Virus record (IMG/VR): IMGVR_UViG_3300031951_009873
Coordinates: 1-64,000 of that record
Strand: one strand, 5' to 3'
DNA length: 64,000 nt
Source: a virus
Below are positions 1 to 15,999 of this stretch, in pieces (the stretch's first letter is position 1; each line of letters starts with the position of its first letter). A model generated the notes under the pieces. That model searched no databases, was not told the origin of the DNA, and was given only the letters and a program-made list of their open reading frames with translations. The translations under genes were made by a program, and so were the position numbers.

Positions 1-2
1 CA

Positions 3-185
3 GAATTCTACAAGAAGGACATCATCATTAATGTTCTTGGTCCAGTAGGTGATAAGGTTGAAGAATGGATTCTTAAGGGCGCACAAATCACCAAAGTTGA
101 ATTCGGTGAAATGAGTTGGGAAAAGGACGACCCTATGTCCATCTCATTGACCATCCAACCAGACTACTGCATCCTCAACTACTAA
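3..185 (+). CDS. Tail tube protein (T4 gp19-like), C-terminal fragment, 5'-truncated by window edge
   Basis: Manual translation EFYKKDIIINVLGPVGDKVEEWILKGAQITKVEFGEMSWEKDDPMSISLTIQPDYCILNY*; LGPxG...EEW.L.GA and the terminal 'LTI.PDY' match myophage tail tube C-termini; followed by a terminator. Confidence 0.8.
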   Translation, partial: EFYKKDIIINVLGPVGDKVEEWILKGAQITKVEFGEMSWEKDDPMSISLTIQPDYCILNY

Positions 186-200
186 TATTGTAGTAAAAGC

Positions 201-230
201 AAAAACCCCACCTAAAAAGTGGGGTTTTTT
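201..230 (+). terminator. Rho-independent (possibly bidirectional) terminator
   Basis: AAAAACCCCAC-ctaaaaa-GTGGGGTTTTTT: perfect inverted repeat with T-run, just after the tube stop codon. Confidence 0.9.
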
Positions 231-251
231 GTTATATACCAATACTTAGTG

Positions 252-260
252 ATACTTATA
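252..260 (+). promoter_or_regulatory. Putative late-promoter motif variant (ATACTTATA)
   Basis: One mismatch to ATATTTATA, which recurs upstream of structural genes; 27 nt upstream of ATG 288. Confidence 0.4.
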
Positions 261-287
261 TAAAGGTGTATTTTTTCGAGGAAGACT

Positions 288-626
288 ATGGCAGAAATTA
301 CTGAATTCAACATTGGTCAAGGGGAAACTTTCAAAATATTGACCAGCCTAGAAAATATAGATACAGATTCTTACTTAGATATAACAAATTATACATTTAC
401 TGGCCAAGTTCGTGAAAATTTTAGCACGGATGAAATTGCTGCTACATTTACGATTACAAAAATAAATCCACAGACTTCGGGAAGTTTCTATATAGAATTA
501 AGCCCTTCGGATACAAGTGCATTAACACAGCGTAAGTATGTGTATGATGTCAAGATGACCAGTGGTTCCATCACTCGTCGTGTTCTTGAAGGATACTTTG
601 TCGTTCGCCCAGCTGCTACGAGATAA
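288..626 (+). CDS. Small virion structural protein, LtfC/BppU-like fibre-attachment domain
   Basis: GETF...DITNYTFTGQVR...LSPSDT.AL...YVYDV...RVLEG.FVV.P pattern typical of this beta-sandwich family; precedes fibre genes; GAGG RBS. Confidence 0.6.
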   Translation: MAEITEFNIGQGETFKILTSLENIDTDSYLDITNYTFTGQVRENFSTDEIAATFTITKINPQTSGSFYIELSPSDTSALTQRKYVYDVKMTSGSITRRVLEGYFVVRPAATR

Positions 627-629
627 TAG

Positions 630-1709
630 ATGAGTAATTTTATCGTCAATACCGATATTCCAAATCTTCGGGTTGTTGTTAGAGAAGGTGACCAATATAA
701 TATAAACATCGTCCCAGGTAGAATTACTACACAAGTCACTGGGTCGTTTACTAGTTACGCAGATATGGCCGGAATGGCAGCATCTGCTTCATATGTTAGT
801 GGTGCAGGTGTATTCGCAGAGTTTGCAACATCGGCAAGTTATGCACAAACCGCAGAAACTATAAATTTTGCAACGGTAACAGATAATAGAAGATTTCCTG
901 TTGTATTTATCAGCGGTTCCCGTATATCCACAGATACGACAGGACATTTTGGATTTAATCCGAACACGCACACAGTAACTATTAGTGGTAGCCTTGACCA
1001 AGATGGTGGAGTCGCAAGTCTATCACCACGAAGTATACTATTCTTTTCCGGTAGTAGTTCTGCAATATTAGACAAGTATGGAATGTATGCTAATTCCGAA
1101 GGTAAACTAATAGGATTAGCATCGAACCCATCACAAATAGATCCATTTTTATCGGGTAATACCGACCCTGCAATATTTCTTACATCGGGTAGTGGATTTA
1201 ACAGTGCATACATACCAGTACAATTTCAAGCATCAGGAAGTTATACCGACGGTCGGGTAACAGTAAATACTCCACTTTTAGCAAAACAAAGTGTAGAAGT
1301 CACTGGATCAGCTACAATAACGGAATTTGTAAAATCTAATGAATACAAGTTAAATGCAGGTACAGTTTCAATCATATTCACGGGTTCAATTAATCAAGGT
1401 ATATTTGGGGTAACTGAATATATCCAACCCTACATTTCTACCACAGAATACTCAGGAATGACAGTAGAATACCTCGCCCAACGACCAGGCGCATGCAGAA
1501 TGGGTATTATTATGGCATCGTGGTTAGATACAGCCAGTATTGTATTTACTGATATTTCCACTACCGATATCGGGGATACAAGTGATATAACATTTAGATT
1601 TTTAAGTAGTTCAAATGAATTACGGTTACGGGTCAATAGTGACGGGTCAGGCAGTGGAGCTTGGACTGTACAAAGTTTATTCAAATTGTTTCCAAATTTG
1701 AGTTCTTAA
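630..1709 (+). CDS. Virion fibre/decoration protein
   Basis: ASASY/SASYA motifs, Ser/Gly/Thr rich; C-terminal domain (R.G.I.A.W...FTD.ST.D.G.T.D) shared with the 1758..4214 product. Confidence 0.55.
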   Translation: MSNFIVNTDIPNLRVVVREGDQYNINIVPGRITTQVTGSFTSYADMAGMAASASYVSGAGVFAEFATSASYAQTAETINFATVTDNRRFPVVFISGSRISTDTTGHFGFNPNTHTVTISGSLDQDGGVASLSPRSILFFSGSSSAILDKYGMYANSEGKLIGLASNPSQIDPFLSGNTDPAIFLTSGSGFNSAYIPVQFQASGSYTDGRVTVNTPLLAKQSVEVTGSATITEFVKSNEYKLNAGTVSIIFTGSINQGIFGVTEYIQPYISTTEYSGMTVEYLAQRPGACRMGIIMASWLDTASIVFTDISTTDIGDTSDITFRFLSSSNELRLRVNSDGSGSGAWTVQSLFKLFPNLSS

Positions 1710-1720
1710 AGAAGTATTTA

Positions 1721-1729
1721 ATATTTATA
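1721..1729 (+). promoter_or_regulatory. Putative late-promoter motif ATATTTATA
   Basis: Intergenic, 28 nt upstream of ATG 1758; the same motif occurs at 9172, 51509 and 56462. Confidence 0.55.
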
Positions 1730-1757
1730 TACAATAAAACCCCGTTGGGAGAACCGT

Positions 1758-4214
1758 ATGGCAAATGAATTTATTGCACGTAAAGGTCTGATAGTCCTTG
1801 CGAATGGCGCGAAGGTAACAGGCTCTTTAGGTGTTCAAGGTGATATTAACGCAACTGGCTACAATGTCACGGCATCAAACCTCCAGTTACTTGGAAGTGC
1901 AAGTATCAATGGTGACATTACCGTTGGCGGAAATCTTACAGTCGGTAATGCGGATATTGATGTCGTCAAGTTCCTGGCCGAAGTTAGTTCATCTATCGTA
2001 CCAGATATTAATAATTCGTTTGACCTTGGGTCTGGTTCTAAGTCATGGAAAGACTTATATGTGAGTGGAACCGCATATGTTAACAATGTTGCAGCAACAA
2101 GTATAACTGGTTCAATAACCGGTTCGTTTACTGGTAATGTAAACGCAACAACATTTAGTTTTGATATAGACGGATTTGGTAGCGACCTAACTGGTATCAC
2201 AGTTGCCGGTACAGACAAATTAATATTATCAGATGGTGGCACCGATGGTCGTATCAATGTCAGTCAACTCGCTACACCACTTGCAGGAACTGGACTTGAA
2301 GCAGATGCAGGTACCATTCGTATCGCATCATCAGCAGCAGGTTCTGGTTTAACTGGTGGGGCGGGTTCCGCACTTGCAGTTGGTGCAGGTAGTGGTATTA
2401 CAGTAAACCCAGAAGATGTCGAACTTAATACTGGATCTGCACATTTCGTAACTGGTGCAAGAGCAACCATTTCATCCACTGATACTACAGGTGCAAGTGG
2501 TATTAATCTTAGATACAATCCTGCAACTGGTGTCATCTCTGGTTCTCTTGTTAATAGTTCAGTAACAGTAAGTGCAGGTAGTGGTTTAAGTGGCGGTGGT
2601 TCAGTTAGTCTTGGTGGTACTACTACAGTCACACTTGATACATCATCTGCTCACTTTACTGGTGGTGTTAAGGCTAAATTAAACGTAGATAATGTTGTCA
2701 GTAGTTCAATACAAATTGACCACGATGCAACTACAAACTTTGTAGCAAACGAACACATCGACCACACTGCAGTCAGTATCACAGCAGGTTCTGGTTTAAG
2801 TGGTGGTGGTGACATTACCACAACTCGTACAATCACACTTGATACATCATCTTCTCACTTTAACGATGGTGTCAAGACTAAGTTAAACACAGAAGGTATA
2901 TTCAGTAGTTCTGTACAAACCGATGTTCGTAACACCACTGGTATTGCAACCATTGCAACTACTGGTTCAAACACCTTTACTGGTATTCAAACAATCAGTA
3001 ACACTACCAACAGTACAAATTTTGCAGATGGTGCATTAATTGTACAAGGTGGTGTTGGTATCACTAAGGATGTAAACATCTCTGGTAGTTTGACCGTTAC
3101 TGGATTGTTGACCGCAGTATCCAGTTCTATCCAATATGTTACATCTTCACAACTTAATATCGGTTTAAGCAGAATCACGGTAAATGACGATGACCTAGTA
3201 AGATTTGCTGGTCTATCCGTTATTGATTCTGGTTCTACATTTGGTACTGGTTCACTACTTTGGGACAGTCTGAATAATCACTGGATAGCTGAAGTTGACG
3301 ACCAAAATTATAATTCTACTATTTTAATTGGTGGTCCAAAAAATAGTGGTTCACTTGGAAGTGAAATTGGATTAACCGCAAATCGTGTTCCAGTAGCAGT
3401 AGACACAAACCACATTGATAGTAGACTAGAATCAAGTTCTATCCGTGTTGATTTCCCATCACGACTTACTCATATTGAAGCTGGACTGGTTGTAACGGGG
3501 TCAGTAACATCTTCAGTAGGATTCTCTGGTGATGGTAGTCAACTTACAGGTATCGTTACAGAACTTGCACTTACTGGTTCAGATGGTGGTACGGGTACTG
3601 TCTCACTTAAGACACAAGCACTTACTGTAGATGGTACAAATGGTCTAACCGCAACCGTTAGTGGTCAAACTATTACCATCAGTGGTAGTAATGCAACAAC
3701 AACTACAAAGGGTGTTGCATCATTTACTGGTTCAAACTTTACCGTCATTGGTGGTGAAGTAAGTTCCAATCCAATTAATTTCAACGGTGCAAATATCAAT
3801 CTTGGTGGGACGCATTCATTTGGTCTTGCAAACATTACTTCACAAGGTGCAAGTACTGCCGACCAAGTTACATTCAACGGTGGGGCAATTGTACATGGTG
3901 TTCTCTTTACTTCTGGTAGTAATCTAGATATTGATAGTGGTACAGAAGTTATTGCATCGGTATCAACTGGAAGTTTTGACGCAGCATACTTTGATTATGT
4001 TGTAAAGAAAGAAAGTAACTATAGAGCAGGTACCGTGACCGCAGTATGGGAAGCAGGTACAGGTAACGTTGAATTTACCGATGTATCTACCAACGACTTA
4101 GGAAATACTGCAGATGTAGTACTCTCAGTAGACCTAGCTTCAGCAACCGCACGGTTGAAGGCAACGGTAACCTCAGACAATTGGATAGTTAAGACCGCAG
4201 TAAGAGCATTATAA
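1758..4214 (+). CDS. Tail fibre-like virion protein (818 aa)
   Basis: [12 protein letters not shown]-terminus shared with the next gene; repeated AGSGL.GGG and LDTSS.HF motifs; FDLGS.SK.WKDLYV fibre motif. Confidence 0.7.
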   Translation: MANEFIARKGLIVLANGAKVTGSLGVQGDINATGYNVTASNLQLLGSASINGDITVGGNLTVGNADIDVVKFLAEVSSSIVPDINNSFDLGSGSKSWKDLYVSGTAYVNNVAATSITGSITGSFTGNVNATTFSFDIDGFGSDLTGITVAGTDKLILSDGGTDGRINVSQLATPLAGTGLEADAGTIRIASSAAGSGLTGGAGSALAVGAGSGITVNPEDVELNTGSAHFVTGARATISSTDTTGASGINLRYNPATGVISGSLVNSSVTVSAGSGLSGGGSVSLGGTTTVTLDTSSAHFTGGVKAKLNVDNVVSSSIQIDHDATTNFVANEHIDHTAVSITAGSGLSGGGDITTTRTITLDTSSSHFNDGVKTKLNTEGIFSSSVQTDVRNTTGIATIATTGSNTFTGIQTISNTTNSTNFADGALIVQGGVGITKDVNISGSLTVTGLLTAVSSSIQYVTSSQLNIGLSRITVNDDDLVRFAGLSVIDSGSTFGTGSLLWDSLNNHWIAEVDDQNYNSTILIGGPKNSGSLGSEIGLTANRVPVAVDTNHIDSRLESSSIRVDFPSRLTHIEAGLVVTGSVTSSVGFSGDGSQLTGIVTELALTGSDGGTGTVSLKTQALTVDGTNGLTATVSGQTITISGSNATTTTKGVASFTGSNFTVIGGEVSSNPINFNGANINLGGTHSFGLANITSQGASTADQVTFNGGAIVHGVLFTSGSNLDIDSGTEVIASVSTGSFDAAYFDYVVKKESNYRAGTVTAVWEAGTGNVEFTDVSTNDLGNTADVVLSVDLASATARLKATVTSDNWIVKTAVRAL

Positions 4215-4278: not shown

Positions 4279-7200
4279 ATGGCAAATGAATTTATAGCCA
4301 GAAAGGGACTGGTTGTCCCTACTGGTAGTATAATAGTTTCATCTGGTTCGGTTACCGCAAATGATTTCTTCGGAACTGCAAGTCGAGCAGTTACCGCATC
4401 ATTTGCGTTAAACGCAGCAGGTTCAGGATTCCCCTTCAGTGGTAGTGCAGTCATCACCGGGTCACTTAATGTAACCCAGGCGGTGACTGCATCGTTTTTT
4501 AAGGGTGACGGGTCACAAATTACAGGATTAAATACTTTAAGTAGTTCAGTAAATATTGATACACATACTTTCCAAGGTGATGGCTCTACCTCAAACTTTG
4601 TATTATCTCAAAGTTATGAACTGTCCTCATTATTTGTTTCTGTCGATGGATTATCGCAAACAAGTATCACAGACTATAGTATATCAACAAACATTCTTTC
4701 ATTTGTAGAAGCACCGCCTTCACAATCAAGTATATTAGTTAGAGCCTTAATAAATGTAACCCAAGGTGCTACGGGTTCATTTAGTGGTTCATTTCAAGGT
4801 GTAATTACAAGTGCAAGTTATGCAGAAACCGCTAGTTTTGCACTAACCCCATCAGGAACTTCTGGTAGTTCGGGAACGTCGGGTACATCGGGTAGTTCTG
4901 GAAGTACAGGCACCTCGGGTTCATCAGGTAGCACAGGAACTTCGGGTAGTTCCGGTTCAACAGGAACGTCTGGTTCATCTGGATCAAGTGGTATAGATGG
5001 TACTTCAGGAACATCAGGTTCATCAGGAACCTCTGGTAGTTCTGGTTCTACGGGAACCTCAGGTAGCTCGGGAAGTACAGGAACGTCTGGTAGTAGTGGT
5101 AGCACGGGTACCTCTGGTAGCTCGGGTTCAACCGGTACATCGGGTAGTTCAGGCACATCTGGTACTTCTGGTTCAAGTGGGACTGCTGGTTCTTCTGGAA
5201 CAAGTGGTACGCTTACATTAACGGGTACCACAGATAATGGATTGATTACTCTCAATGGTTCAGCTCCAAATGCAACCGTAGAAAGTAATCTTACCTTTGA
5301 TGGTAATTCGTTAGTAGTTACAGGAGCAATCACAGCAAGTACTATACGAGTTAATGGTACTGCATCATTACGATATTTAGAAACACAATTTGTAACCGCT
5401 TCAGTTATCTATGAAAGTGGTTCTACTAAGTTTGGTGACAGCTTTGATGATGTACATCAACGCACTGGTTCACTAGAAATTACTGGCTCACTTGTAATAA
5501 ACGGAACTTCGTATACCGCAGCAACTTCTGGAACATCAGGTACTGCAGGAAGCGCGGGCACATCAGGAAGTAGTGGTACTTCTGGAACATCTGGTTCATC
5601 AGGCAGTACCGGAACCTCAGGCAGTTCAGGAACATCAGGCAGTTCTGGTTCTTCAGGAACAACAGGAACTAGTGGAAGTAGTGGAACTTCGGGAGAAAAT
5701 GGAAGTAGCGGAACCTCTGGTAGTTCGGGCACAACAGGAACTAGTGGTAGTGCAGGAACTTCAGGTTCTTCCGGTAGTTCGGGTACTTCAGGAAGCGCCG
5801 GTACATCAGGTACCGCTGGTAGTAGCGGTAGTACGGGAACCTCTGGAAGCGCAGGAACAGCTGGTAGTAGTGGAACAAGTGGTTCTTCTGGGTCAACGGG
5901 CACCTCAGGGTCAAGCGGTTCAACTGGAACTTCTGGTAGTAGCGGCTCAACAGGAACATCCGGTAGTAGCGGTAGTACAGGAACTTCAGGTTCATCCGGA
6001 TCAACAGGTTCATCTGGAACCAGTGGAAGTTCGGGAAGTACTGGTACAAGCGGATCAGCAGGAACAAGTGGTACTACCGGTAGCTCAGGAACATCAGGTA
6101 CATTAACGCTCACAGGCACCACTGATAATGGATTAATTACATTAAATGGAACCGCACCAAACGCAACCGTAGAAAGCAACTTAACATTTGACGGCAGTAC
6201 CTTAACAGTGGTTGGTAATGAAGTTATATCCGGTTCCACTACAATTACAGGTAACCTCACAGTTCTTGGGTCATCATCAATTGGATATCTTACCCAAAGT
6301 CAATTAAATATCGGTACCAATTTAATCACAGTTAATGCACTCAATCCTGAATTCCGTTTTGGAGGATTAGCTGTTATTGATTCAGGATCATCACCAAAAG
6401 TTAGTGGTTCGTTATTATTTGATTCCATTAATGACCAATGGATATTCATTCATCAACAAGTAGCAGGGGCAGGTACTACATCATCCGTATTATTAATGGG
6501 CCCGCAAACCTTTAATGATGTTGGGAACGAAACGAATTTAAGTACAAATAGAATTCCAAAGAGTAATAACTCAGAACATCTCTCAGACTCCATCATTACG
6601 GATAATGGGTCGCAAATAACTGTTAGTGGGTCGGTATCTGCATCCTCATTTACAAGTTCTATTTCAAACGGAGTTGGCTTCTTTGGCACCGCATCTTATG
6701 CATTAACTCCTGCGGGAACTGCGGGTAGTAGTGGAACATCTGGTAGCTCTGGCACATCAGGTTCATCAGGTAGTACAGGAACCTCTGGTAGCAGTGGTAG
6801 TGCGGGAACCTCTGGCTCGTCTGGAAGTACGGGAACATCAGGAAGCTCAGGAACAACAGGTACTTCTGGAAGTTCGGGTACATCTGGAGCAGGGGGAAGT
6901 TCTGGAACCAGTGGAACAGCTGGTAGTTCGGGAACTACTGGAACTAGTGGCAGCGCAGGAACTTCTGGTTCGGCAGGAACTAGTGGTAGCGCAGGTACAT
7001 CTGGAACCGCAGGTAGTTCTGGTACTTCTGGAGCAAATGGTTCATCTGGCACTTCTGGCTCATCAGGAAGTAGTGGAACTACGGGAACCAGCGGTAGTTC
7101 GGGTACTTCTGGAGCAAACGGTAGTTCCGGTACCTCTGGTAGTTCAGGAACATCAGGCAGTTCTGGTACGTCGGGCTCATCAGGAAGTAGTGGAACTACG

Positions 7201-9138
7201 GGAACCAGTGGTAGTTCAGGCTCCACAGGAACAAGCGGTTCTTCTGGTAGTACAGGTACATCTGGAAGTAGCGGTAGTACTGGAACATCTGGATCTTCTG
7301 GAACAGCTGGTAGTTCTGGTACTTCTGGGGCAGGAACCATTAGTGGCGGAGCAGCCAACAGAGTTGCATTCTACTCAGGAGAAACATCACTCACAGGAAG
7401 TGCAAATCTTACCTATGATGGTAATTCACTAGTAGTTACTGGTCCTCTTACTGCAAGTGCTTTAAGAGTTAATGGTACAGCATCAATTAGATATTTAGAA
7501 ACACAATTCGTAACATCATCTATTATCTTTGAATCTGGTTCTACAAAATTTGGTGATAGTTTTGATGATGTTCACCAAAGAACTGGTTCGCTAGCAATTA
7601 CCGGTTCGTTAACTATAAATGGTACCTCGTATACAGCAGCAACTTCTGGAACATCGGGTACTTCTGGTAGCGCAGGTACATCAGGCACCAGCGGTAGTTC
7701 AGGTACCTCTGGTAGTTCTGGTTCTACGGGAACAAGCGGTTCATCAGGTACATCCGGATCATCTGGCACATCAGGTAGCTCAGGATCTACAGGTACCTCA
7801 GGCTCATCTGGAACCACTGGTACATCAGGTTCTTCTGGAAGCACTGGTTCATCGGGTACCTCGGGTTCTTCTGGAACTACGGGCACATCTGGAAGTTCTG
7901 GTACCAGTGGCTCTTCAGGAAGTTCTGGTACAACCGGGTCTAGTGGTACCACGGGAAGTAGTGGTACTTCGGGTACATTAACATTAACTGGTACTAAAGA
8001 TAATGGTTTAATTACCTTAAACGGGTCTGCCCCAAACGCCTCGGTCGAAAGTAATCTAACCTTTGATGGAAATTTATTAACCGCTATCGGTAGTGGTAAT
8101 TATCAAGCAGCAATTAGTGGAAGTACTGCTGCAGCATATACACAATTGTATATCAACGGTACTGGTCGTGCTTATGGCATTGGTGTTGGTAACGCAAGTG
8201 AAACTACATACGGTGTAGCAAACGAATTCTTCCTATTTGACCACAATGCAGCAGCAATGCGATTGGCAGTTGATATCAATGGTAACATTGGTGTCGGTAC
8301 AACCAGTCCAGTAAACAGATTACAAATTGCGGGTAATGTCTCAGCGTCATCATATACCAGTTCTATTTCTAACGCAGTAGGATTCTTTGGTACCAGTAGT
8401 GTAGCAGTATCTTCGTCACATGCAACCACCGCATCATTCGCACTAAATGCTGGTGGAGCTGGTTTCCCATTCAGTGGTAGTGCAGTTATTACGGGTTCAT
8501 TGTATGTATCGGGTAGTAATATCTCTGGGTCATTTGTTGGCGATGGTAGTGGATTAACCAATGTAAACGCCGCACTGAATGTAATTGAATCTTCATTTGT
8601 TGGAGATGGTACCACCACATCATATTCACTGGGAGCTAGTTATCCAGCAAAATCATTAATTGTTACAGTGGATGGATTAAGATTTAATGCTCCAGACGAT
8701 TTCACTATGTCTGGAAACAATGTAGTATTTACCTCAGCACCACCATCTTCATCAACAATATTCGTTTCGGCGCTAATAAACACCGCAACAAATGTTACGG
8801 GGTCATTTAGTGGGTCATTCTTTGGTAATATTGCTAGTGCAAGTTTCGCAACTAGTGCGTCATATGTACAACCAAGCGGGTTACCATCTGGTGTAGTCTC
8901 AGCTTCTTCACAAATTAGTATAGTGGCTGATAACCATGCATTAGTGGGGGACGGGACCACTACTATATACACACTATCCCAATCGTATTCGCCGGCAATA
9001 CTAACGGTGTCGATTGATGGATTGGTAAATACATTGACGGAAGATTATACAGTATCTACGAATCAACTCACATTCGTTTCCGCACCTCCGTCCTCGTCAA
9101 ATATCTTGGTAAAAGGTATTAGAATAGCACTAATATAG
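4279..9138 (+). CDS. Long collagen-like (Gly-Ser/Thr) fibre protein (1619 aa)
   Basis: Four Gly-X-Y tracts separated by repeated globular modules; three GDG.T..(F/Y).L...V.(V/I)DGL...D(Y/F)...APPS.S.I domains; [10 protein letters not shown] fibre motif. Confidence 0.75.
4855..5214 (+). repeat. Gly-X-Y tract 1 (40 triplets, GTS/GSS/GST)
   Basis: Gly at every third residue, counted from the translation; no Pro. Confidence 0.9.
5530..6105 (+). repeat. Gly-X-Y tract 2 (~64 triplets)
   Basis: 9-nt period GGN-ACN/TCN/AGY repeats; length from coordinates. Confidence 0.9.
6715..7326 (+). repeat. Gly-X-Y tract 3 (~68 triplets)
   Basis: GTA GSS GTS... through GTS before GAGTISGG. Confidence 0.9.
7648..7980 (+). 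repeat. Gly-X-Y tract 4 (~37 triplets)
   Basis: GTS GTS GSA... through GTL. Confidence 0.9.
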
Positions 9139-9171
9139 AGGTAAAAAAATGGTTTTATTAGAGGTTTCTTT

Positions 9172-9180
9172 ATATTTATA
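9172..9180 (+). promoter_or_regulatory. Putative late-promoter motif ATATTTATA
   Basis: Intergenic, 28 nt upstream of ATG 9209. Confidence 0.55.
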
Positions 9181-9208
9181 TCAGATAACTCATTTTTAGA
9201 GATTATAA

Positions 9209-11410
9209 ATGGCGATAACTAGACTTACCGGTGTATTGATTAAGAGCGGAAGTATTCCTACACATGCTTTAAGTGGTGGGGTAGTTTCTAGTTCGGCGCA
9301 GATTACCAGTTTACTACCCGCGGGCGCGGTTAGTAGTTCTGCACAAATCAATACTGGTTCATTTACTGGCTCTTTTACTGGTTCACTATTTGGCACCGCG
9401 AGTTATGCAGACTTTGCATTAACTCCCGCAGGTACTGCTGGTAGTTCGGGTACATCTGGTTCTTCTGGAACCAGTGGCTCATCGGGTACAGCAGGAAGTA
9501 GTGGAAGTACAGGTACCAGTGGAACATCAGGTAGTTCTGGAACAGCCGGTAGTAGTGGAACCTCAGGATCATCTGGTACAACAGGCTCTTCAGGAAGTAC
9601 AGGTACATCAGGAAGTAGCGGTTCTACTGGCACGAGCGGCTCATCAGGTTCTACCGGAACATCTGGTAGTAGCGGAACTTCTGGTTCTTCGGGTACCAGT
9701 GGAAGTTCTGGAAGCACTGGCACAAGCGGGTCATCTGGAACCGCAGGAAGTAGTGGAACAGCCGGTAGTTCAGGTACTAGTGGAACACTCACTCTTACAG
9801 GCACCACCGACAACGGATTAATCACACTTAATGGCTCTGCACCAAACGCAACCGTAGAAAGCAACTTAACATTTGACGGAAGTACCTTACGAGTTACGGG
9901 GTCCGCAATTATTACTAGTAACTTGACGGTACTCGGTACATCTTCTATTAGTTTTGTTTCTCAAAGTACCTTAGATATTGGTACCAATGTTATTACCGTT
10001 AATACATTATCTCCTGGTACAAGATTCGGTGGTCTATCGGTAATTGACTCTGGTTCATCACCAAAAGTAAGTGGTTCAATATTCTTTGATTCTCTCAAGG
10101 ACGAATGGATATTCATTCATCAACAAGCAGCAGGTGCAGGAGTTACCTCATCTGTATTTATGATGGGCCCACAAACATTTGATAGTGTTGGTAATGAACT
10201 TACTTTAACTACAAATAGAATTCCAAAGAGTCAAAATGCAGAACATCTTAGTGATTCTATTATCACTGATAATGGGTCACAAATTACTGTCGCAGGTACC
10301 GTATCAGCTTCCTCATTCACAAGTTCGATTGTAAATGGCGTTGGATTCTTTGGTACCGCATCATTCGCATTAACTCCAGCAGGTACAGCAGGTTCCTCTG
10401 GAACATCTGGAACCGCAGGAAGTAGTGGAACCGCTGGCTCATCGGGTACAGGCGGCAGTTCTGGTACCACGGGTACATCTGGTAGTAGTGGAACAGCGGG
10501 AACATCTGGTAGTTCAGGAACATCTGGTGCAGCAGGTACATCAGGTAGTTCGGGAACCAGTGGTAGTTCAGGAACATCTGGTTCTTCTGGAACTACAGGT
10601 ACATCAGGTAGTTCGGGAACAGCCGGAACCGGCGGTAGTTCTGGTACATCAGGAGCAAACGGAGCAACAGGAGCAACGGGTGCGGCAGGAACCAGTGGTA
10701 GTTCTGGTACAGCAGGTACTTCTGGCGCTGGAACTATTAGTGGTGGTTCCGCTGACAGAGTAGCAATATTCTCTGGAGCTACAACACTCACAAGTAACAC
10801 AGGACTAACATATAGTTCACCAAGACTTACTGTATCTGGTGACAGTCCAAATATTTACTTAAACTCTGGTAATGACGATTCCAGAATATATTTCACGGGT
10901 CTAGATAGATATATCCAAGGTTCAGCTGGCTCGGCCTTAAAATTCATCACACAAGATGGTCAACGCGCCCATATGGATTCATTTGGTGTGTATGTTAATG
11001 CGGCACTTGGTGTGGGTTCTCAACCAACTACGGGATGGACTGGTGGTGAAATCCGCGCAACTAATGAAATTACCGCATACGCATCGGATGCACGATTAAA
11101 GAATTTTCATGGAACTATTCAAGATGCGGTCAAGAAAGTATTATCAATTAATGGGTACTACTTCACAGAAAACGAAGTGGCTAAGTCACTAGGATTCAAT
11201 AAAGATGCAATGCAAGTCGGTGTCAGTGCACAAGAAATACAAGAAATACTTCCAGAAGTCGTTGCACCAGCTCCTGTTAATAATGAATACCTAACCGTGC
11301 GTTACGAACGGCTTACTGCATTATTAATTGAAGCAATTAAAGAACAACAAGGCACTATTGACAAATTACAAGAAAGAATTACGATTCTTGAAACAAATAA
11401 TAAAGGTTAA
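9209..11410 (+). CDS. Collagen-like tail fibre with C-terminal Peptidase S74 intramolecular chaperone
   Basis: Two Gly-X-Y tracts; C-terminal [10 protein letters not shown]...[15 protein letters not shown]...[20 protein letters not shown] is the S74 autocleaving chaperone signature. Confidence 0.85.
9431..9790 (+). repeat. Gly-X-Y tract 5 (~40 triplets)
   Basis: GTA GSS GTS... through GTL. Confidence 0.9.
10382..10723 (+). repeat. Gly-X-Y tract 6 (~38 triplets)
   Basis: GTA GSS GTS... including GAN GAT GAT GAA. Confidence 0.9.
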
Positions 11411-11422
11411 CGGGAGTACGGT

Positions 11423-11599
11423 ATGGGTATAATACCAGCAACCGGTTCGGAAATTGCGATGGGGCGGGTGCGAAACGCATACGGCCTTTCGGGACAAGTC
11501 GCACTGCGTGCCAATCTAGGTGCTCAAATTGGTATTACTACTGGTCAAATTCGTTTGTCTATTGATTTCGGTGGCAGAACCACACCAAATAATTATTAA
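11423..11599 (+). CDS. Small fibre-associated protein (58 aa; not in ORF track)
   Basis: GGGAG RBS; MGIIPATGSEIAMGRVRNAYGLSGQVALRANLGAQIGITTGQIRLSIDFGGRTTPNNY*; resembles the short P.SG.I proteins that follow S74-fibre genes. Confidence 0.7.
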   Translation: MGIIPATGSEIAMGRVRNAYGLSGQVALRANLGAQIGITTGQIRLSIDFGGRTTPNNY

Positions 11600-11608
11600 T
11601 ACTGGGAC

Positions 11609-11637
11609 TTGACAAGTTTAGTAGTATAATATATATT
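11609..11637 (+). promoter_or_regulatory. sigma70-type promoter at the start of the modification island
   Basis: TTGACA-N17-TATATT in the intergenic region upstream of 11670. Confidence 0.7.
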
Positions 11638-11669
11638 TAAATACGGTTATCTAATAAGGGGTTACTTTT

Positions 11670-12128
11670 ATGAGTGAAATAACATTCGAAACATTATTGG
11701 CAGCAGTAAATACTAACCCATCGGAATACGAAGAAAAGTATGTCCGATGGGTTTCTATTGGGTATGACAAAAAAGTTTTGGCAGAACTATTGTATGAATT
11801 ACAATATCTGAAAGAGAAAGACGAATGGCCAGAACGAATTAAATTTTTAGAAGGTATTCTCGCCCAATATAATCCACAACATTTATTGAATTTATTAAAC
11901 GGTGAAACGCAAACGACACGATTTGCGTTAATTGAAAAGTGGTCACGTCAAGGGGCTATGGAAATACTCATCTTTGATAAGTACAGTATCGATACATTAA
12001 ATACTGTCACACAGTTTCCATTGGCAGATTATCAACTCTTTGTCAAACGAGTACAAGAAATTGTCACTATGATTCGTGAAATCACCAGCCAAGCAGCAAC
12101 ATTAGCATCCGGAGTCGCCGGGCTATGA
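11670..12128 (+). CDS. Hypothetical protein (helical)
   Basis: 152-aa ORF with AAGGGG RBS; overlaps the next gene (ATGA). Confidence 0.6.
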   Translation: MSEITFETLLAAVNTNPSEYEEKYVRWVSIGYDKKVLAELLYELQYLKEKDEWPERIKFLEGILAQYNPQHLLNLLNGETQTTRFALIEKWSRQGAMEILIFDKYSIDTLNTVTQFPLADYQLFVKRVQEIVTMIREITSQAATLASGVAGL

Positions 12129-12823
12129 AGAACATCTACGACTTGACGATTTGGCAAACTAGACCTACAAAATTAGCGATTCTTATTCCATGCAGAGAAT
12201 CTGTATATAGTTTATTCACTGCGTCCTTAGTTGAGTTGGTCAAGACTACGACGATGGCAGGAATAGATGTTCATGTCATTTATGACCAAAGTACGATTTT
12301 ACTCACACAACGAGAAAGATTGGCACAGCAAGCATTAGCGATGAAAGCAGATTATGCTCTGTGGTTGGACTCGGATATGATGTTCCCAAGCACCACCGCG
12401 ATGCGTTTAATGGGACATAATGTTGATATCGTATGTTCCAACTATATGAAACGGTCGGTCCCACTTCAAACAGTCGCATATCCAGAACGAGGAAACTGGG
12501 AAAACTGGTTACCACTAGAGGGTGACCAAGAACTGCAAGAAGTGGAAGGTGTGGGTATGGGATGTATGATGATGAAAACCGAAGTACTGAACAAGCTGGT
12601 TCCTCCATATTTTGCCTTTGAATATAAGGACAAAGAATGGCACGGGGAAGATTTCTTTTTCCAGAGTAAATTGCGCAAAGCAGGATATAAGATACTCGTA
12701 GATATGAATCTCAGTTTCCAAGTTCGCCATGTAGGACAATGGGCGTTTGGGCCAAGTATTGCTACTAATGAAGAACAACGAATTAAGAGACATACAAAAA
12801 AGGTAAAGAAAAATGCTGAATAA
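12125..12823 (+). CDS. GT-A fold (GT2-like) glycosyltransferase
   Basis: ILIPCR, LWLDSDM (DxD), GVGMGCMMM, HGEDFFF and HVG motifs. Confidence 0.75.
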   Translation: MKNIYDLTIWQTRPTKLAILIPCRESVYSLFTASLVELVKTTTMAGIDVHVIYDQSTILLTQRERLAQQALAMKADYALWLDSDMMFPSTTAMRLMGHNVDIVCSNYMKRSVPLQTVAYPERGNWENWLPLEGDQELQEVEGVGMGCMMMKTEVLNKLVPPYFAFEYKDKEWHGEDFFFQSKLRKAGYKILVDMNLSFQVRHVGQWAFGPSIATNEEQRIKRHTKKVKKNAE

Positions 12824-13922
12824 TGAGTCGTGGTTAGCACATAGTGATTTATTTAAAAAATATTGGGTAGTAGAAATTAAACCGTGGGTACGTAGTTTGG
12901 GTTGGTTTACTGACTATATGGAAACTGTAAAGGACGCAGATGGTTGGGCACAAGCAGGAGAAAAAGAATTATCAGTATTTGATTATGTTCAGATTGTAGA
13001 CCAACCGTTAGCTGAAAAGAAATTATATCGTTGTATTAATAGTGTTTCTTGGGAGCACATTTCTGGTCCTGTATTATTTGTCGTTCGTAAAGATAACGAG
13101 CAAGTGTTTATTGCAGGGTGGGCGGGAGAACGGAAGATTATTGAAAAGATGAAACAAGAAAGTGATGACCCATGGCAATGGTCAGAAAAGATGATTGTCG
13201 AAGTTAATCCCGCATCTGCAATACGAACTGTGCCGACTGCAAAAAGACCAAAAGACAAAACTGTTCCTGTATTTTTCGTCAGTAATGGGGAAAGTAATGC
13301 AGATGAAAATTGGAAGCATTTAACTAACTTATATCCACATGCAATTCGTATAGATGGAATAAATGGACGAAGAAAGATGTTTCATCGTTGTGTTGATTTA
13401 GCTAGGGACGCAAAGCAATTCTTTGTAATCACTGGCAAAAATTACATAACTGATTTAAATGTATTTAATTATCCGGTTGAAACGGTTACAGATGCTCACA
13501 TTATATTTCATGCAAAGAATATGAGTAATCGTTTGGAATATGGACATATGGGTATCGTCTGTTATAATAGCAATCTTGTACTGAATACTCCAAAAAACTT
13601 TGGATTGGATTTCACACAATTTAGTAAGACCGTTACTATTCCAATGACAGTCAGTGAAGCACACTTTGCAACATCTCCGTTCGAAGCATGGAGAACTGCG
13701 TTCCGTGAAGCAGTTAAGTTATCTATGACACACACTCCAGATGCACATCTGTGGTTACAACGGTGGACTGCCTTTGCTGAAGGTCCAAACGCTAACTGGG
13801 TATTAAAGGGTACGGAAGACGGTATACAGTACGCAGAACAGTATGTAAAGAATCCAGATGAATTACAAAAAACTGTGGATTGGAATTGGTTACAAGAAAA
13901 GTTTGAAGAGTTGCATGATTGA
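12813..13922 (+). CDS. Putative glycosyltransferase-like protein (phage family)
   Basis: FVSNGESNADENW, IDGING, N.LEYGHMG and EAWRTAFREAVKL motifs; the usual DxD is not evident (VITGKN). Confidence 0.5.
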   Translation: MLNNESWLAHSDLFKKYWVVEIKPWVRSLGWFTDYMETVKDADGWAQAGEKELSVFDYVQIVDQPLAEKKLYRCINSVSWEHISGPVLFVVRKDNEQVFIAGWAGERKIIEKMKQESDDPWQWSEKMIVEVNPASAIRTVPTAKRPKDKTVPVFFVSNGESNADENWKHLTNLYPHAIRIDGINGRRKMFHRCVDLARDAKQFFVITGKNYITDLNVFNYPVETVTDAHIIFHAKNMSNRLEYGHMGIVCYNSNLVLNTPKNFGLDFTQFSKTVTIPMTVSEAHFATSPFEAWRTAFREAVKLSMTHTPDAHLWLQRWTAFAEGPNANWVLKGTEDGIQYAEQYVKNPDELQKTVDWNWLQEKFEELHD

Positions 13923-14585: not shown

Positions 14586-15998
14586 ATGAGCGCATCGGAG
14601 TTATTTAGAAGCACAAAAAGAAAACTGGACGTTATTAGTTCAACAATGTGTTTAGCAAAGTGGCAACAAGTTACAATTCATTTAGGTAACGGAACGACTC
14701 ATAGCTGCCACCATCCTAGGGTTCATTTAATTCCTTTAGAAGAATTAGAAAATAATCCATCTGCTTTACATAACACACAGTATAAAAAAGAATTAAGAAA
14801 GCAGATGTTAAATGGAGAACGTCCAGACGAATGTGATTATTGTTGGAGAGTAGAAGATAATCCACGTGGTGATACGGATGGGGATGTATATAGTGACAGA
14901 ATTGTGAAGAGTTCTGAAAATTGGGCTGCTCCGCACTATGACCAAGTTAAAAATATGCCGTGGAGCACCAATATAAATCCATCATATATGGAAGTTGATT
15001 TCGATACTACTTGTAATTTTAAGTGTGCGTACTGTTCTCCGCTGTATTCTACTACGTGGATGCAAGAAATTAAACAACACGGTCCATATAAATTACCAAC
15101 TATGGTCTTTAATAACATAGATCACTTAGAACGTGGTAAAGGATTACCTATTTTACAGTCTGAAGAAAATCCTTATATTGATGCGTTCTGGAAGTGGTGG
15201 CCTGATGCTGTACGTCACCTCCATACGTTTAGAATTACTGGTGGGGAACCACTACTAAGTAAGAATACATTTAAAGTTCTTGACTTCTTAATTGACAACC
15301 CACAACCACAGATGGAATTTAACATCAACAGTAATTTGGGTGCACCTAAGGAAATTGTAGATAAATTTATTGAAAAAATTGCAATCATACAAGACAAAAA
15401 GGCTGTCAAGGAATTTAAGCTATTTACTAGTAATGAAGCTCACGGCAAACGAGCAGAATATATTCGTTTTGGTTTAAACTACGATTACTGGTTAGGTAAT
15501 GTGGACAGAGTTTTAAGCGAAGTGCCCGATAGTAAAGTCACTATGATGAGTACGTTTAATTTATTGTCTGTTACTTCTTACTTAGATTTCTTAAAGGATA
15601 TGTTGGAATTGAAATTACGTTATTCACATCAAACAAAGAGACAAATACCATTAGCAGTAGACGTACCATACCTAAGACATCCAGACTTTTTAGCAGCATG
15701 GGTGTTAACTGAGAATTATCTTGATTATATTGGAGAGTGTGTAACTTTCATGTATAGAAATCAAGAATTTGGCAGATGGTATCCGTTGGCTACCAAGGGA
15801 TTCTTTGAACATGAAATTCACAGAATGGAACGGTTGTATTATTTAGTTTCTAAACAAATGGGAGTTAATAAACCAGAAAACATAGAACAGAGAAGAAACT
15901 TTGGCCTATTCATTGATGAATATGATAAGCGTAGAGGAACAAATTTCACACAAACCTTTCCAGAATTAGAAGATTTTTACCGTTTCTGTAAGATTTGA
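14586..15998 (+). CDS. Radical SAM enzyme with N-terminal twitch/SPASM-like Cys cluster
   Basis: CNFKCAYC (CX3CX2C), ITGGEPLL; N-terminal CLAKW..SCHH..CDYCW. Confidence 0.9.
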   Translation: MSASELFRSTKRKLDVISSTMCLAKWQQVTIHLGNGTTHSCHHPRVHLIPLEELENNPSALHNTQYKKELRKQMLNGERPDECDYCWRVEDNPRGDTDGDVYSDRIVKSSENWAAPHYDQVKNMPWSTNINPSYMEVDFDTTCNFKCAYCSPLYSTTWMQEIKQHGPYKLPTMVFNNIDHLERGKGLPILQSEENPYIDAFWKWWPDAVRHLHTFRITGGEPLLSKNTFKVLDFLIDNPQPQMEFNINSNLGAPKEIVDKFIEKIAIIQDKKAVKEFKLFTSNEAHGKRAEYIRFGLNYDYWLGNVDRVLSEVPDSKVTMMSTFNLLSVTSYLDFLKDMLELKLRYSHQTKRQIPLAVDVPYLRHPDFLAAWVLTENYLDYIGECVTFMYRNQEFGRWYPLATKGFFEHEIHRMERLYYLVSKQMGVNKPENIEQRRNFGLFIDEYDKRRGTNFTQTFPELEDFYRFCKI

Positions 15999-15999
15999 G

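What the first reader, a model, noticed from the sequence alone, without database searches (positions are those of the whole stretch)
4855..10723. Proline-free Gly-X-Y collagen built from Ser/Thr
Seen: six tracts (~40, 64, 68, 37, 40 and 38 triplets) with strict Gly periodicity, X/Y almost only S/T/A, no Pro and almost no charged residues. These are not random GS linkers. Known: triple helices lacking Pro/Hyp and charge pairs are unstable, but glycosylated Thr in the Y position stabilises the cuticle collagen of the vent worm Riftia. Inference: O-glycosylation may be required to fold these fibres, which would make the island structurally essential. An alternative fold is a polyglycine-II bundle, as in snow-flea antifreeze protein.
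Basis: partly seen in the sequence, partly recalled or inferred. Interest (0 to 1): 0.8.

Follow-up and report, generated by a model that had tools for sequence, protein, structure and literature searches.

The report
Proline-free collagen-like phage tail fibres
Two tail-fibre genes of an uncultured freshwater jumbo phage carry six long Gly-Thr/Ser-Ser repeat tracts with no proline and almost no charge, a widespread but unstudied variant of phage "collagen" whose fold and supposed need for glycosylation remain untested.

Summary
ORF B (4279-9138) and ORF C (9209-11410) hold six unbroken Gly-X-Y tracts of 40, 64, 69, 37, 40 and 39 triplets. They contain no Pro and 2 charged residues in 578 X/Y positions. 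The genes are tail fibres of a lake jumbo phage (record 80 kb, about 33% complete).

Evidence that the tracts are structural:
- Gly and tract length are strictly conserved against an orthologue with only 61-63% DNA identity.
- A conserved cap of about 37 residues follows tracts 1, 2, 4 and 5, and a second motif follows tracts 3 and 6.
- ORF C ends in a Peptidase_S74 chaperone domain, as known in trimeric phage fibres.

A collagen-like triple-helical shaft is therefore the best reading.

This composition is family-wide: 105 related phage proteins with 16,870 triplets. Thr sits in X and Ser in Y, the reverse of the Riftia and BclA pattern.

The claim that glycosylation is required is not supported:
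- The adjacent GT-A glycosyltransferase belongs to a conserved "S74 fibre - orf152 - GT" cassette that also accompanies fibres without collagen tracts.
- A 97%-complete relative with proline-free tracts lacks this GT family.

Fibre glycosylation remains possible. A polyglycine-II bundle is unlikely. My verdict is a new compositional variant of a known kind, of moderate interest.

The parts
1758..4214 (+). ORF A, 818 aa. A third fibre-like protein without Gly-X-Y tracts. It shares the first 13 residues ([11 protein letters not shown][IV]V) with ORF B.
   Evidence: conserved at 70-76% identity in relatives
4279..9138 (+). ORF B, 1619 aa. A tail-fibre protein with four proline-free Gly-X-Y tracts separated by non-collagen nodes.
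4540..4791 (+). Phage T7 tail-fibre N-terminal-like domain of ORF B. It recurs twice at the C-terminus, at 8569-8817 and 8917-9120.
   Evidence: Pfam PF03906, E 2.9e-9; internal BLASTP 46-51% identity, E 4e-21 and 1e-20
4855..5214 (+). Tract 1, 40 triplets
5215..5529 (+). Node D1. It begins with the conserved post-collagen cap [32 protein letters not shown].
5530..6105 (+). Tract 2, 64 triplets
6106..6714 (+). Node D2: cap plus a roughly 200-aa domain homologous to the node of ORF C. It ends in the pre-collagen motif [15 protein letters not shown].
   Evidence: 80% identity to the ORF C node; 228 relatives in IMG/VR
6715..7335 (+). Tract 3, 69 triplets
7336..7647 (+). Node D3, with the variant post-collagen motif [17 protein letters not shown]...NLTYDG. 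It is a paralogue of D1.
   Evidence: sequence
7648..7980 (+). Tract 4, 37 triplets. Lake-metagenome contigs from two studies carry a 27-nt insertion (three triplets) at 7710.
7981..9138 (+). C-terminal region of ORF B: a cap, then two T7-tail-fibre-N-like domains.
   Evidence: Pfam DUF3642 hit on the cap at aa 1230-1276
9209..11410 (+). ORF C, 733 aa. A tail-fibre protein with two tracts and a C-terminal intramolecular chaperone.
9431..9790 (+). Tract 5, 40 triplets
9791..10381 (+). Node D of ORF C: cap plus the conserved domain.
10382..10732 (+). Tract 6, 39 triplets
10733..11083 (+). Distal tip region of ORF C, the probable receptor-binding part. It is variable among relatives.
   Evidence: only L013 and L012 align across it
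11084..11407 (+). Peptidase_S74 intramolecular chaperone domain, starting at Ser626 in the motif S-D-A-R-L-K.
   Evidence: Pfam PF13884, 31.2 bits against a cut-off of 22; motif located; PHROG tail-fibre C-terminal families; shared by most relatives' giant fibres
11670..12128 (+). orf152, a small conserved gene between the fibre and the GT. No family was found.
12125..12823 (+). Anp1-like GT-A glycosyltransferase with an invariant DSD motif at aa 82-84. It is the first gene of the sugar island.
12813..13922 (+). orf369, a conserved member of the cassette in the closer relatives.

Best explanation
ORFs B and C, with ORF A, are tail-fibre proteins of an uncultured freshwater jumbo phage.

I infer that each proline-free Gly-[Thr/Ser]-Ser tract forms a homotrimeric collagen-type triple-helical rod. 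Each tract is bounded by a conserved N-terminal motif (..GFFGTAS[YF]ALTP[AS]G.. or ..[12 protein letters not shown]..) and a conserved C-terminal cap of about 37 residues (TLTG..DNG..T.NG....VE.NL.FDG). The caps would hold the three chains in register and nucleate folding.

In ORF C, folding would start from the C-terminal S74 chaperone, which then cleaves itself off at Ser626.

The rods would act as length-setting shafts. At 0.286 nm per residue the tracts give about 34, 55, 59 and 32 nm in B and 34 and 33 nm in C, with globular nodes between them as joints.

With no imino acids and no salt bridges, stability would have to come from the end caps, from chain length, from Ser/Thr hydroxyl hydration, and from the cool lake habitat. 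O-glycosylation may add to this.

Shown here: the tracts, their conservation, the caps, the S74 domain and the phage and fibre context. Inferred: trimer formation, the triple-helical fold, the folding order and the ruler function.
For: Tracts and composition.

Fibre identity:
- Pfam Collagen, Phage_T7_tail and Peptidase_S74.
- PHROG tail-fibre and collagen-like minor tail families.
- Phage replication and fibre genes in the rest of the record.

Purifying selection: against the L013 orthologue, DNA identity is 61-63%, all 79 Gly codons are kept (43 of them by synonymous change), and tract lengths are identical at 40 and 39 triplets. Orthologous tract sets are 43/62/54/42 and 42/60/59/40 against 40/64/69/37 here. 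A natural variant differs by exactly 27 nt, which is three triplets.

Cap: invariant residues hold across 14 sequences down to 34% identity, whatever domain follows.

Trimer context: the S74 Ser-x4-Lys motif is present, and S74 domains end most relatives' fibres.

Family-wide pattern: 105 proteins and 16,870 triplets have 0.1% Pro and 3.6% charged residues, and Thr is commoner in X than in Y in 99% of them. This position-specific grammar is not expected of a disordered linker.

Link to ordinary collagen-like repeats: in megaphage LR756501 a 37-triplet GTS tract runs, after a 2-residue break, into a 163-triplet GPQ/GPT tract in the same chain.

Habitat: lake and freshwater metagenomes from more than 10 studies.
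Against: - There is no direct test of the fold.
- The tracts lack every stabiliser described for natural triple helices. Pro/Hyp and Lys-Glu/Asp salt bridges are proposed as the general folding code (PMC11923368). EPclA stability is attributed to Pro in X and 22% charged residues (PMC3368898).
- Ac-(Gly-Pro-Thr)10 is a random coil unless glycosylated (cited in PMC11923368).
- From my memory of Persikov et al. 2000, not verified here, Thr favours Y and Ser favours X. The observed G-T-S order would then be the less favourable one.
- PDB and Pfam collagen hits rest on Gly periodicity alone.
Confidence: 0.6

Rival explanations
1. The tracts form a triple helix only after O-glycosylation of Ser/Thr by phage enzymes (the adjacent GT and the sugar island), so the island is essential for fibre folding.
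For: - A GT-A glycosyltransferase with an invariant DxD motif lies 0.7 kb downstream of ORF C on the same strand. It is more conserved (88-96%) than the fibres.
- The order fibre - orf152 - GT recurs in 47 of 54 loci, down to about 48% GT identity.
- Its closest solved folds include the GT-like domains of collagen-glycosylating enzymes: LH3 (Z 20), COLGALT1 (Z 17) and Mimivirus R699 (Z 18). Generic GT-A folds score about 14.
- Glycosylated Thr is known to stabilise collagen in Riftia, and BclA is a glycosylated bacterial collagen-like protein (PMC11923368; PMC8968730).
- G005 has other GT1 and GT2 genes 10-20 kb from its fibre.
Against: - The cassette follows the S74 fibre, not the collagen tracts. 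Only 23 of 54 linked fibres have 20 or more triplets, and 13 of 19 GT-bearing records have no collagen match, although those records are incomplete.
- A 97%-complete 324-kb relative with tracts of 77 and 71 triplets has no member of this GT family.
- None of 14 other incomplete relatives with such tracts has this GT family either.
- Thr is in X, not in the Y position that is glycosylated in Riftia and BclA.
- Large aquatic phages commonly carry GTs, so nearness alone is weak evidence.
- Shared fold shows neither acceptor nor function.
Confidence: 0.12
2. The tracts are not helical assemblies. They are extended, flexible Ser/Thr/Gly tethers, single-chain PPII or disordered and perhaps mucin-like and glycosylated, that link trimeric nodes and give the fibre reach and flexibility.
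For: - The composition has no known triple-helix stabilisers.
- AF2 gives the tracts very low confidence.
- Ser/Thr-rich regions next to GT genes recall mucin-type stalks, and ppGalNAc-transferases appear among the GT's fold matches.
Against: - A tether needs no Gly at every third residue. Here there are 0 breaks in 289 triplets, 0 non-synonymous Gly changes at 61-63% DNA identity, and exact length conservation.
- The X=Thr, Y=Ser asymmetry holds in 99% of 105 proteins.
- Conserved caps sit at both ends of the tracts.
- An in-register 27-nt insertion variant exists.
Confidence: 0.2
3. The tracts fold back on themselves into a polyglycine-II bundle, as in snow-flea antifreeze protein or the PGII sandwich of phage S16 gp38.
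For: - Gly every third residue with small side chains is also the PGII grammar.
- PGII domains do occur in phage fibre tips (Dunne et al. 2018, cited in PMC12143355).
Against: - From my own knowledge of the sfAFP and gp38 structures, known PGII bundles use short segments of about 10 residues joined by turns or loops.
- Here the tracts run 111-207 residues with no interruption or turn-type residues. In relatives they reach 234-308 triplets.
- The tracts lie between trimeric nodes rather than at the tip.
- X and Y are hydroxylated residues, not the Gly/Ala needed for tight PGII packing.
Confidence: 0.04

Closest known systems
Phage collagen-like tail-fibre proteins (Smith et al. 1998 'Bacteriophage collagen'; E. 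coli prophage EPclA, PMC3368898; PHROG 'collagen like minor tail')
   Same: Gly-X-Y tracts lie inside trimeric phage fibre proteins and are flanked by trimerisation modules. The role is a shaft or spacer. Pfam Collagen and PHROG fibre families hit.
   Different: EPclA has Pro in about half of its X positions and about 22% charged residues. P-SSM2 orf023/027/028 are GPT/GPA/GPP-rich. The tracts here have 0 Pro and 0.3% charged residues, with X = Thr/Ser and Y = Ser. The caps are a different, undescribed module with no PDB relative by sequence.
BclA of the Bacillus anthracis exosporium and Riftia cuticle collagen (Thr-glycosylated collagens)
   Same: Both are Thr-rich Gly-X-Y sequences without hydroxyproline. 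Glycosylation of hydroxyl residues is a proposed or shown stabiliser. A GT gene lies next to the fibre here.
   Different: In those proteins X is Pro and the glycosylated Thr is in Y. Here there is no Pro, Thr is in X and Ser in Y. Glycosylation is not shown here, and the GT is not specific to collagen-bearing fibres.
Mimivirus collagen-like proteins with virus-encoded collagen-modifying enzymes (L230; R699 structure 9dzs)
   Same: A large virus encodes collagen-like structural proteins together with its own glycosylation machinery. The GT model matches R699 at Z 18.2.
   Different: From my own knowledge, the mimivirus system hydroxylates and glycosylates Lys. There is no Lys in these tracts, and no lysyl hydroxylase was identified.
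Endosialidase / T5 pb1-type fibres with a C-terminal intramolecular chaperone (Peptidase_S74; Schulz et al. 2010)
   Same: A C-terminal S74 domain carrying the Ser...Lys motif ends ORF C and most of its relatives. Such domains are described in homotrimeric fibres and are released by self-cleavage.
   Different: The known examples chaperone triple beta-helices and beta-helical stalks. Here the domain would sit downstream of collagen-like rods.
Polyglycine-II bundles (snow-flea AFP; S16 gp38 adhesin)
   Same: Gly at every third residue with small side chains.
   Different: The tracts here have no turns or loops, are up to 207 residues long, and lie between nodes rather than in a compact tip.

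Membership tests
Collagen triple-helix repeat (PF01391 / collagen-like proteins) | Uninterrupted Gly-X-Y repeats of at least 6-20 triplets | tested here: met
   Six tracts of 37-69 triplets with no break. Pfam scores of 273 and 104 bits against a cut-off of 27.2.
Collagen triple-helix repeat (PF01391 / collagen-like proteins) | Stabilising residues: imino acids in X/Y and/or Lys-Glu/Asp salt bridges | tested here: not met
   0 Pro and 2 charged residues in 578 X/Y positions. The wider family has 0.1% Pro and 3.6% charged residues.
Collagen triple-helix repeat (PF01391 / collagen-like proteins) | Three chains assembled in register (trimer) | not testable with these tools
The only support is indirect: the S74 chaperone domain and the fibre context.
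Collagen triple-helix repeat (PF01391 / collagen-like proteins) | Triple-helical conformation (CD maximum near 225 nm, cooperative melt, protease resistance) | not testable with these tools
   Needs experiment. The AF2 monomer is uninformative.
Glycosylated-Thr collagens (Riftia / BclA type) | Thr predominantly in the Y position | tested here: not met
   Thr is 139 in X against 44 in Y here. Across the family it is 49% in X and 5% in Y.
Glycosylated-Thr collagens (Riftia / BclA type) | A dedicated glycosyltransferase that co-occurs specifically with the collagen tracts | tested here: not met
   The GT is adjacent, but it also accompanies collagen-free S74 fibres (31 of 54 loci; 13 of 19 records). 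It is absent from a 97%-complete relative that has such tracts.
Glycosylated-Thr collagens (Riftia / BclA type) | Glycans attached to the tract residues | not testable with these tools
   Needs mass spectrometry.
Peptidase_S74 intramolecular chaperone | Profile match over the curated cut-off, at the C-terminus of a fibre | tested here: met
   PF13884, 31.2 bits against 22, at aa 626-685 of 733. PHROG fibre C-terminal families score E 1e-13 to 3e-23.
Peptidase_S74 intramolecular chaperone | Nucleophile Ser and base Lys (S-D-x-R-x-K) | tested here: met
   SDARLK at aa 626-631. That this motif is the catalytic dyad is my own knowledge of Schulz et al. 2010.
Peptidase_S74 intramolecular chaperone | Autoproteolytic release | not testable with these tools
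   Needs expression and mass spectrometry.
Polyglycine-II bundle (sfAFP / gp38 PGII sandwich) | Short PGII segments joined by turns or loops into a compact bundle | tested here: not met
   Unbroken tracts of 111-207 residues with no turn positions.
GT-A glycosyltransferase (Anp1/GT62-like) for ORF 12125-12823 | GT-A Rossmann-like fold with a DxD motif | tested here: met
   AF2 pLDDT 80.9. Z 14-20 to GT-A structures. D82-S83-D84 is invariant in 16 homologues. The Pfam Anp1 hit is below its cut-off, at 26.4 against 28.8 bits.

The most novel reading that the evidence does not exclude
G-[Thr/Ser]-Ser repeats are a distinct, 'hydroxyl-only' class of natural collagen triple helix that folds with neither imino acids nor salt bridges. 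Either inter-chain Ser/Thr hydroxyl and hydration ladders, locked by dedicated cap modules, would hold it together, or O-glycans would, added by the LH3/COLGALT1/R699-like GT of the conserved fibre - orf152 - GT cassette. This class would be abundant in freshwater and marine phages.
Probability: 0.3. Interest if true: 0.75.

Novelty: new variant of a known kind. Interest (0 to 1): 0.5.

Why it matters
The rules for collagen stability rest on Pro/Hyp, charge pairs and, in a few cases, glycosylated Thr in Y. This is a large natural family that keeps a perfect Gly register over up to hundreds of triplets and uses none of these. I counted over 100 distinct proteins in the fetched loci, tracts of up to 308 triplets in a 735-kb megaphage, and a very high depth of look-alike repeats in lake metagenomes.

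If the tracts are triple helices, they define a minimal sequence solution built from Gly, Ser and Thr only. They would be a simple model for how hydroxyl groups or glycans stabilise the helix, and a possible source of proline-free recombinant collagens.

If they are not triple helices, Pfam and PHROG 'collagen' labels on many phage fibres are misleading.

The conserved fibre - orf152 - GT cassette is also a concrete, testable candidate for tail-fibre glycosylation in phages.

Tried and rejected
I used the search for related loci instead.
- AF2 monomer of the node with flanking tracts: mean pLDDT 52.7 and about 30 in the tracts. It is not usable for fold search or as evidence of disorder.
- PDB sequence searches: the hits to animal collagens and to a generic GAPGSQ fibril model (8zxl) reflect Gly periodicity only. 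The node gave only marginal hits to lactococcal phage BPP (E 0.04-0.17). The cap/node profile gave nothing credible.
- Cultured relatives: tblastn of the node against 50,697 phage records found nothing. The S-WAM2 giant fibre has no Gly-X-Y tract. P-SSM2 tracts are Pro-rich, so it is not an example of this composition. The DNA hit in Erwinia phage pEa_SNUABM_48 showed no tract of 8 or more triplets in any frame.
- NCBIfam found nothing for ten cassette and island ORFs. The ESM Atlas gave nothing usable for orf152.
- Host clue from 185,579 species genomes: only three short MAG contigs carry the cap, probably binned phage DNA.
- One metatranscriptome run held a small share of the words (X20). 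I did not lay it, so I make no claim about expression.
- I could not verify the host-guest propensity values (Persikov 2000) in the held library. They are quoted from memory only.
- The minus-strand ORFs across the tracts, with (P-x-x)n translations such as 4818-5333 and 5457-6260, are shadow frames of the GGN repeats and not genes.

Full report
**Observation**

ORF B (4279-9138, 1619 aa) and ORF C (9209-11410, 733 aa) lie head to tail on the + strand. A regular-expression scan of their translations finds six unbroken (G-X-Y)n tracts of 40, 64, 69, 37, 40 and 39 triplets. They lie at 4855-5214, 5530-6105, 6715-7335, 7648-7980, 9431-9790 and 10382-10732.

Over the 289 triplets, X is T139, S138, A10 and Y is S200, T44, A31. 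There is no proline and there are two charged residues. GTS and GSS make up 200 of the 289 triplets.

The DNA is not a fresh slippage array. Tandem Repeats Finder sees only imperfect units of 18-63 nt with 63-87% matches. Ser is encoded by both codon families, 203 TCN and 135 AGY. The minus-strand ORFs with P-x-x repeats are shadow frames.

**What the genes are**

The window is the first 64 kb of an 80.5-kb IMG/VR virus record that CheckV rates 33% complete, so the phage is probably over 200 kb. The rest of the record encodes more fibre proteins, a UvsX-like recombinase, DnaB, ribonucleotide reductase and a DNA polymerase. Near-identical DNA occurs in lake and freshwater metagenomes from more than ten studies.

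- ORF B hits Pfam Collagen and the T7 tail-fibre N-terminal domain. That domain occurs once near the N-terminus and twice at the C-terminus.
- ORF C hits Collagen and, at aa 626-685, Peptidase_S74, the intramolecular chaperone of endosialidase-type fibres. Many PHROG tail-fibre and 'collagen like minor tail' families also hit.
- The S74 motif S-D-A-R-L-K starts at Ser626.
- ORF A (1758-4214) has no tract and shares the first 13 residues with ORF B.

**Are the tracts under structural constraint?**

Yes.

- The orthologue in locus L013 has tracts of exactly 40 and 39 triplets, as here, yet the tract DNA is only 61-63% identical. Of 79 Gly codons, 36 are identical, 43 differ synonymously and none differs non-synonymously. 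X and Y change freely within S/T/A.
- Orthologues of ORF B carry tract sets of 43/62/54/42 and 42/60/59/40 triplets, against 40/64/69/37 here.
- Lake contigs from two studies carry a 27-nt insertion in tract 4, coding G-T-S-G-S-S-G-T-S. That is three triplets, in register.
- Tracts 1, 2, 4 and 5 are followed at once by a conserved module of about 37 residues (TLTG..DNG.iT.nG....VE.NL.FDG..L). It has 15 invariant positions across 14 sequences down to 34% identity, whatever domain comes next.
- Tracts 3 and 6 are followed by a second motif (AGTISGG..RVA..SG...NLTY).
- Two conserved motifs precede the tracts.

**How widespread is this composition?**

The non-collagen node of ORF C has 228 relatives in IMG/VR. 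Nearly all of the fetched loci carry Gly-X-Y tracts with 0 Pro and 75-99% Ser/Thr/Ala, some up to 223 triplets long.

Pooling the distinct proline-poor proteins from both locus sets gives 105 proteins, 473 tracts and 16,870 triplets:
- X is T 49% and S 42%.
- Y is S 73%, A 6% and T 5%.
- Pro is 0.1% and charged residues are 3.6%.
- Thr is commoner in X than in Y in 99% of the proteins.

These proteins are related to one another, so this is a family trait and not 105 independent events. The same G-T-S grammar does, however, appear in the cultured Microcystis phage Mel-JY01 (149 triplets) and in the 735-kb megaphage LR756501 (tracts of 238-308 triplets). In the megaphage, one protein joins a 37-triplet GTS tract to a 163-triplet GPQ/GPT tract after a two-residue break. 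Tract bins recruit 10-100 times the depth of non-tract bins from lake contigs at 85% likeness or more. This suggests that such repeats are very common there.

By contrast, the classic examples are proline-rich or charge-rich: P-SSM2 and EPclA (PMC3368898). I found no paper in the held library that describes the proline-free G-T-S class.

**Most likely fold**

The best reading is a homotrimeric collagen-type triple helix used as a rigid shaft between trimeric nodes. The grounds are:
- the absolute Gly register;
- the position-specific X/Y grammar;
- conserved tract length;
- dedicated caps;
- continuity with ordinary GPQ/GPT tracts in a megaphage;
- the S74 chaperone, which ends ORF C and most relatives' giant fibres.

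At 0.286 nm per residue the tracts would add about 180 nm to ORF B and 68 nm to ORF C. This is an inference.

The fold itself is not shown.

The composition also contradicts published stability rules. Salt bridges and imino acids are proposed as the general code, and (Gly-Pro-Thr)10 needs glycosylation to fold (PMC11923368). By my recollection of host-guest scales, which I could not verify, Thr prefers Y and Ser prefers X, the reverse of what is conserved here. That reversal is unexplained. It could reflect inter-chain hydroxyl bonding, an enzyme recognition motif, or a different fold.

A flexible tether is the main rival, at about 0.2. It explains the composition but not the Gly register, the length conservation or the caps. 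A polyglycine-II bundle (about 0.04) does not fit unbroken tracts of 111-207 residues.

**The glycosylation inference**

The gene 0.7 kb downstream of ORF C (12125-12823) is a GT-A glycosyltransferase.
- It gives a weak Pfam Anp1 hit and PHROG glycosyltransferase hits.
- D82-S83-D84 is invariant among 16 homologues.
- The AF2 model has pLDDT 80.9.
- It has at least 786 environmental homologues.
- Its nearest solved folds are the second GT-like domain of human LH3 (Z 20), STIV A197 (18.6), Mimivirus R699 (18.2), COLGALT1 (16.9) and Mnn9 (16.7). Generic GT-A enzymes score about 14. This is a suggestive neighbourhood of collagen-modifying enzymes, but a shared fold does not give the acceptor.

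Of 54 viral loci with this GT and at least 3 kb of upstream sequence, 47 have an S74-ended fibre gene upstream. It usually ends about 0.8 kb before the GT, with an orf152 homologue in between. So 'S74 fibre - orf152 - GT (- orf369)' is a conserved cassette, and a functional link between GT and fibre is plausible.

The link is not to the collagen tracts, however.
- Only 23 of the 54 fibres have 20 or more triplets.
- 13 of 19 GT-bearing records have no collagen match at all, although they are 9-56% complete.
- A 97%-complete 324-kb relative with proline-free tracts of 77 and 71 triplets has no GT of this family. It does carry other GT1 and GT2 genes 10-20 kb from its fibre.
- Of the 17 other tract-bearing records searched, 14 lack this GT family; all of them are incomplete.

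I therefore rate 'the fibres are glycosylated' at roughly 0.3-0.35 and 'glycosylation is required for folding' at about 0.1.

The rest of the island (12-51 kb) encodes NDP-sugar epimerases and dehydratases, RmlC, radical SAM enzymes, ThDP enzyme fragments, a carbamoyltransferase, a DegT aminotransferase, 2OG oxygenases and an APS-kinase-like protein. Only its first 8 kb or so is syntenic in the closest relatives.

**Verdict**

The feature is a compositional variant of a known kind, phage collagen-like fibres. It is widespread and apparently undescribed, and it conflicts with current stability rules. Interest is moderate, at 0.5.

Noticed in passing
window 9209-13922; loci L094-L173: A conserved cassette of S74-ended tail fibre, orf152, Anp1-like GT-A glycosyltransferase and often orf369. 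It is present in 47 of 54 viral loci with enough upstream sequence, down to about 48% GT identity, whether or not the fibre has Gly-X-Y tracts. A homologue of the radical SAM gene 14586-15998 often lies 6-8 kb further on.
   Followed up: yes
window 12125-12823: The GT model (pLDDT 80.9) is closest to the GT-like domains of collagen-modifying enzymes: LH3 residues 293-536 at Z 20 and COLGALT1 at Z 17. It is also close to the viral GTs STIV A197 and Mimivirus R699. All of these score 3-6 Z units above generic GT-A folds.
   Followed up: partly
window 4540-4791, 8569-8817, 8917-9120: ORF B carries three copies of a roughly 70-aa T7 tail-fibre N-terminal-like domain, one near the N-terminus and two at the C-terminus (46-51% identity). 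ORFs A and B share only their first 13 residues, [11 protein letters not shown][IV]V, which may be a common attachment peptide.
   Followed up: partly
window 4993-5230, 5469-5706, 7611-7848, 10467-10704: In four lake or freshwater metagenome runs, the tract bins recruit 10-100 times the summed contig depth of the non-tract bins at 85% likeness or more. Similar G-T-S-coding repeats therefore seem to be very abundant in those communities. A 27-nt in-register insertion at 7710 appears in contigs from two studies.
   Followed up: partly
L091 (Microcystis phage Mel-JY01, PP395634.1) 2-3049 + strand: An open frame with a 149-triplet G-T-S tract runs on the strand opposite to the annotated CDS 739-2298. 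The deposited annotation may have called the shadow frame.
   Followed up: no
L092 (megaphage LR756501.1) 14776-16596, minus strand of the locus: A separate 607-aa open frame consists of (Gly-Pro-Cys/Val/Ile)n, with Pro in every X and Cys in about half of the Y positions over 128 triplets. It looks like a Cys-rich collagen-like protein next to the 3488-aa G-T-S protein.
   Followed up: no
window 43410-44195: The sugar island contains a 2OG-Fe(II) oxygenase of the prolyl-4-hydroxylase-like Pfam family PF13640, yet the phage's collagen-like tracts contain no proline. Its substrate is unknown.
   Followed up: no
window 4818-5333, 5457-6260, 6696-7358, 7572-7952, 9403-9864, 10231-10800 (minus strand): Long minus-strand ORFs that translate to (P-[EDLV]-[VLE])n are mirror frames of the GGN-rich tracts. 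They could be miscalled as genes.
   Followed up: no
L020 1094-7456; L016 8211-11383: Some contigs that carry the same node domain also encode fibres whose tracts follow the classical bacterial grammar (X = Pro, Y = Thr/Gln), with different flanking sequences. The two tract types therefore coexist in related phages.
   Followed up: partly
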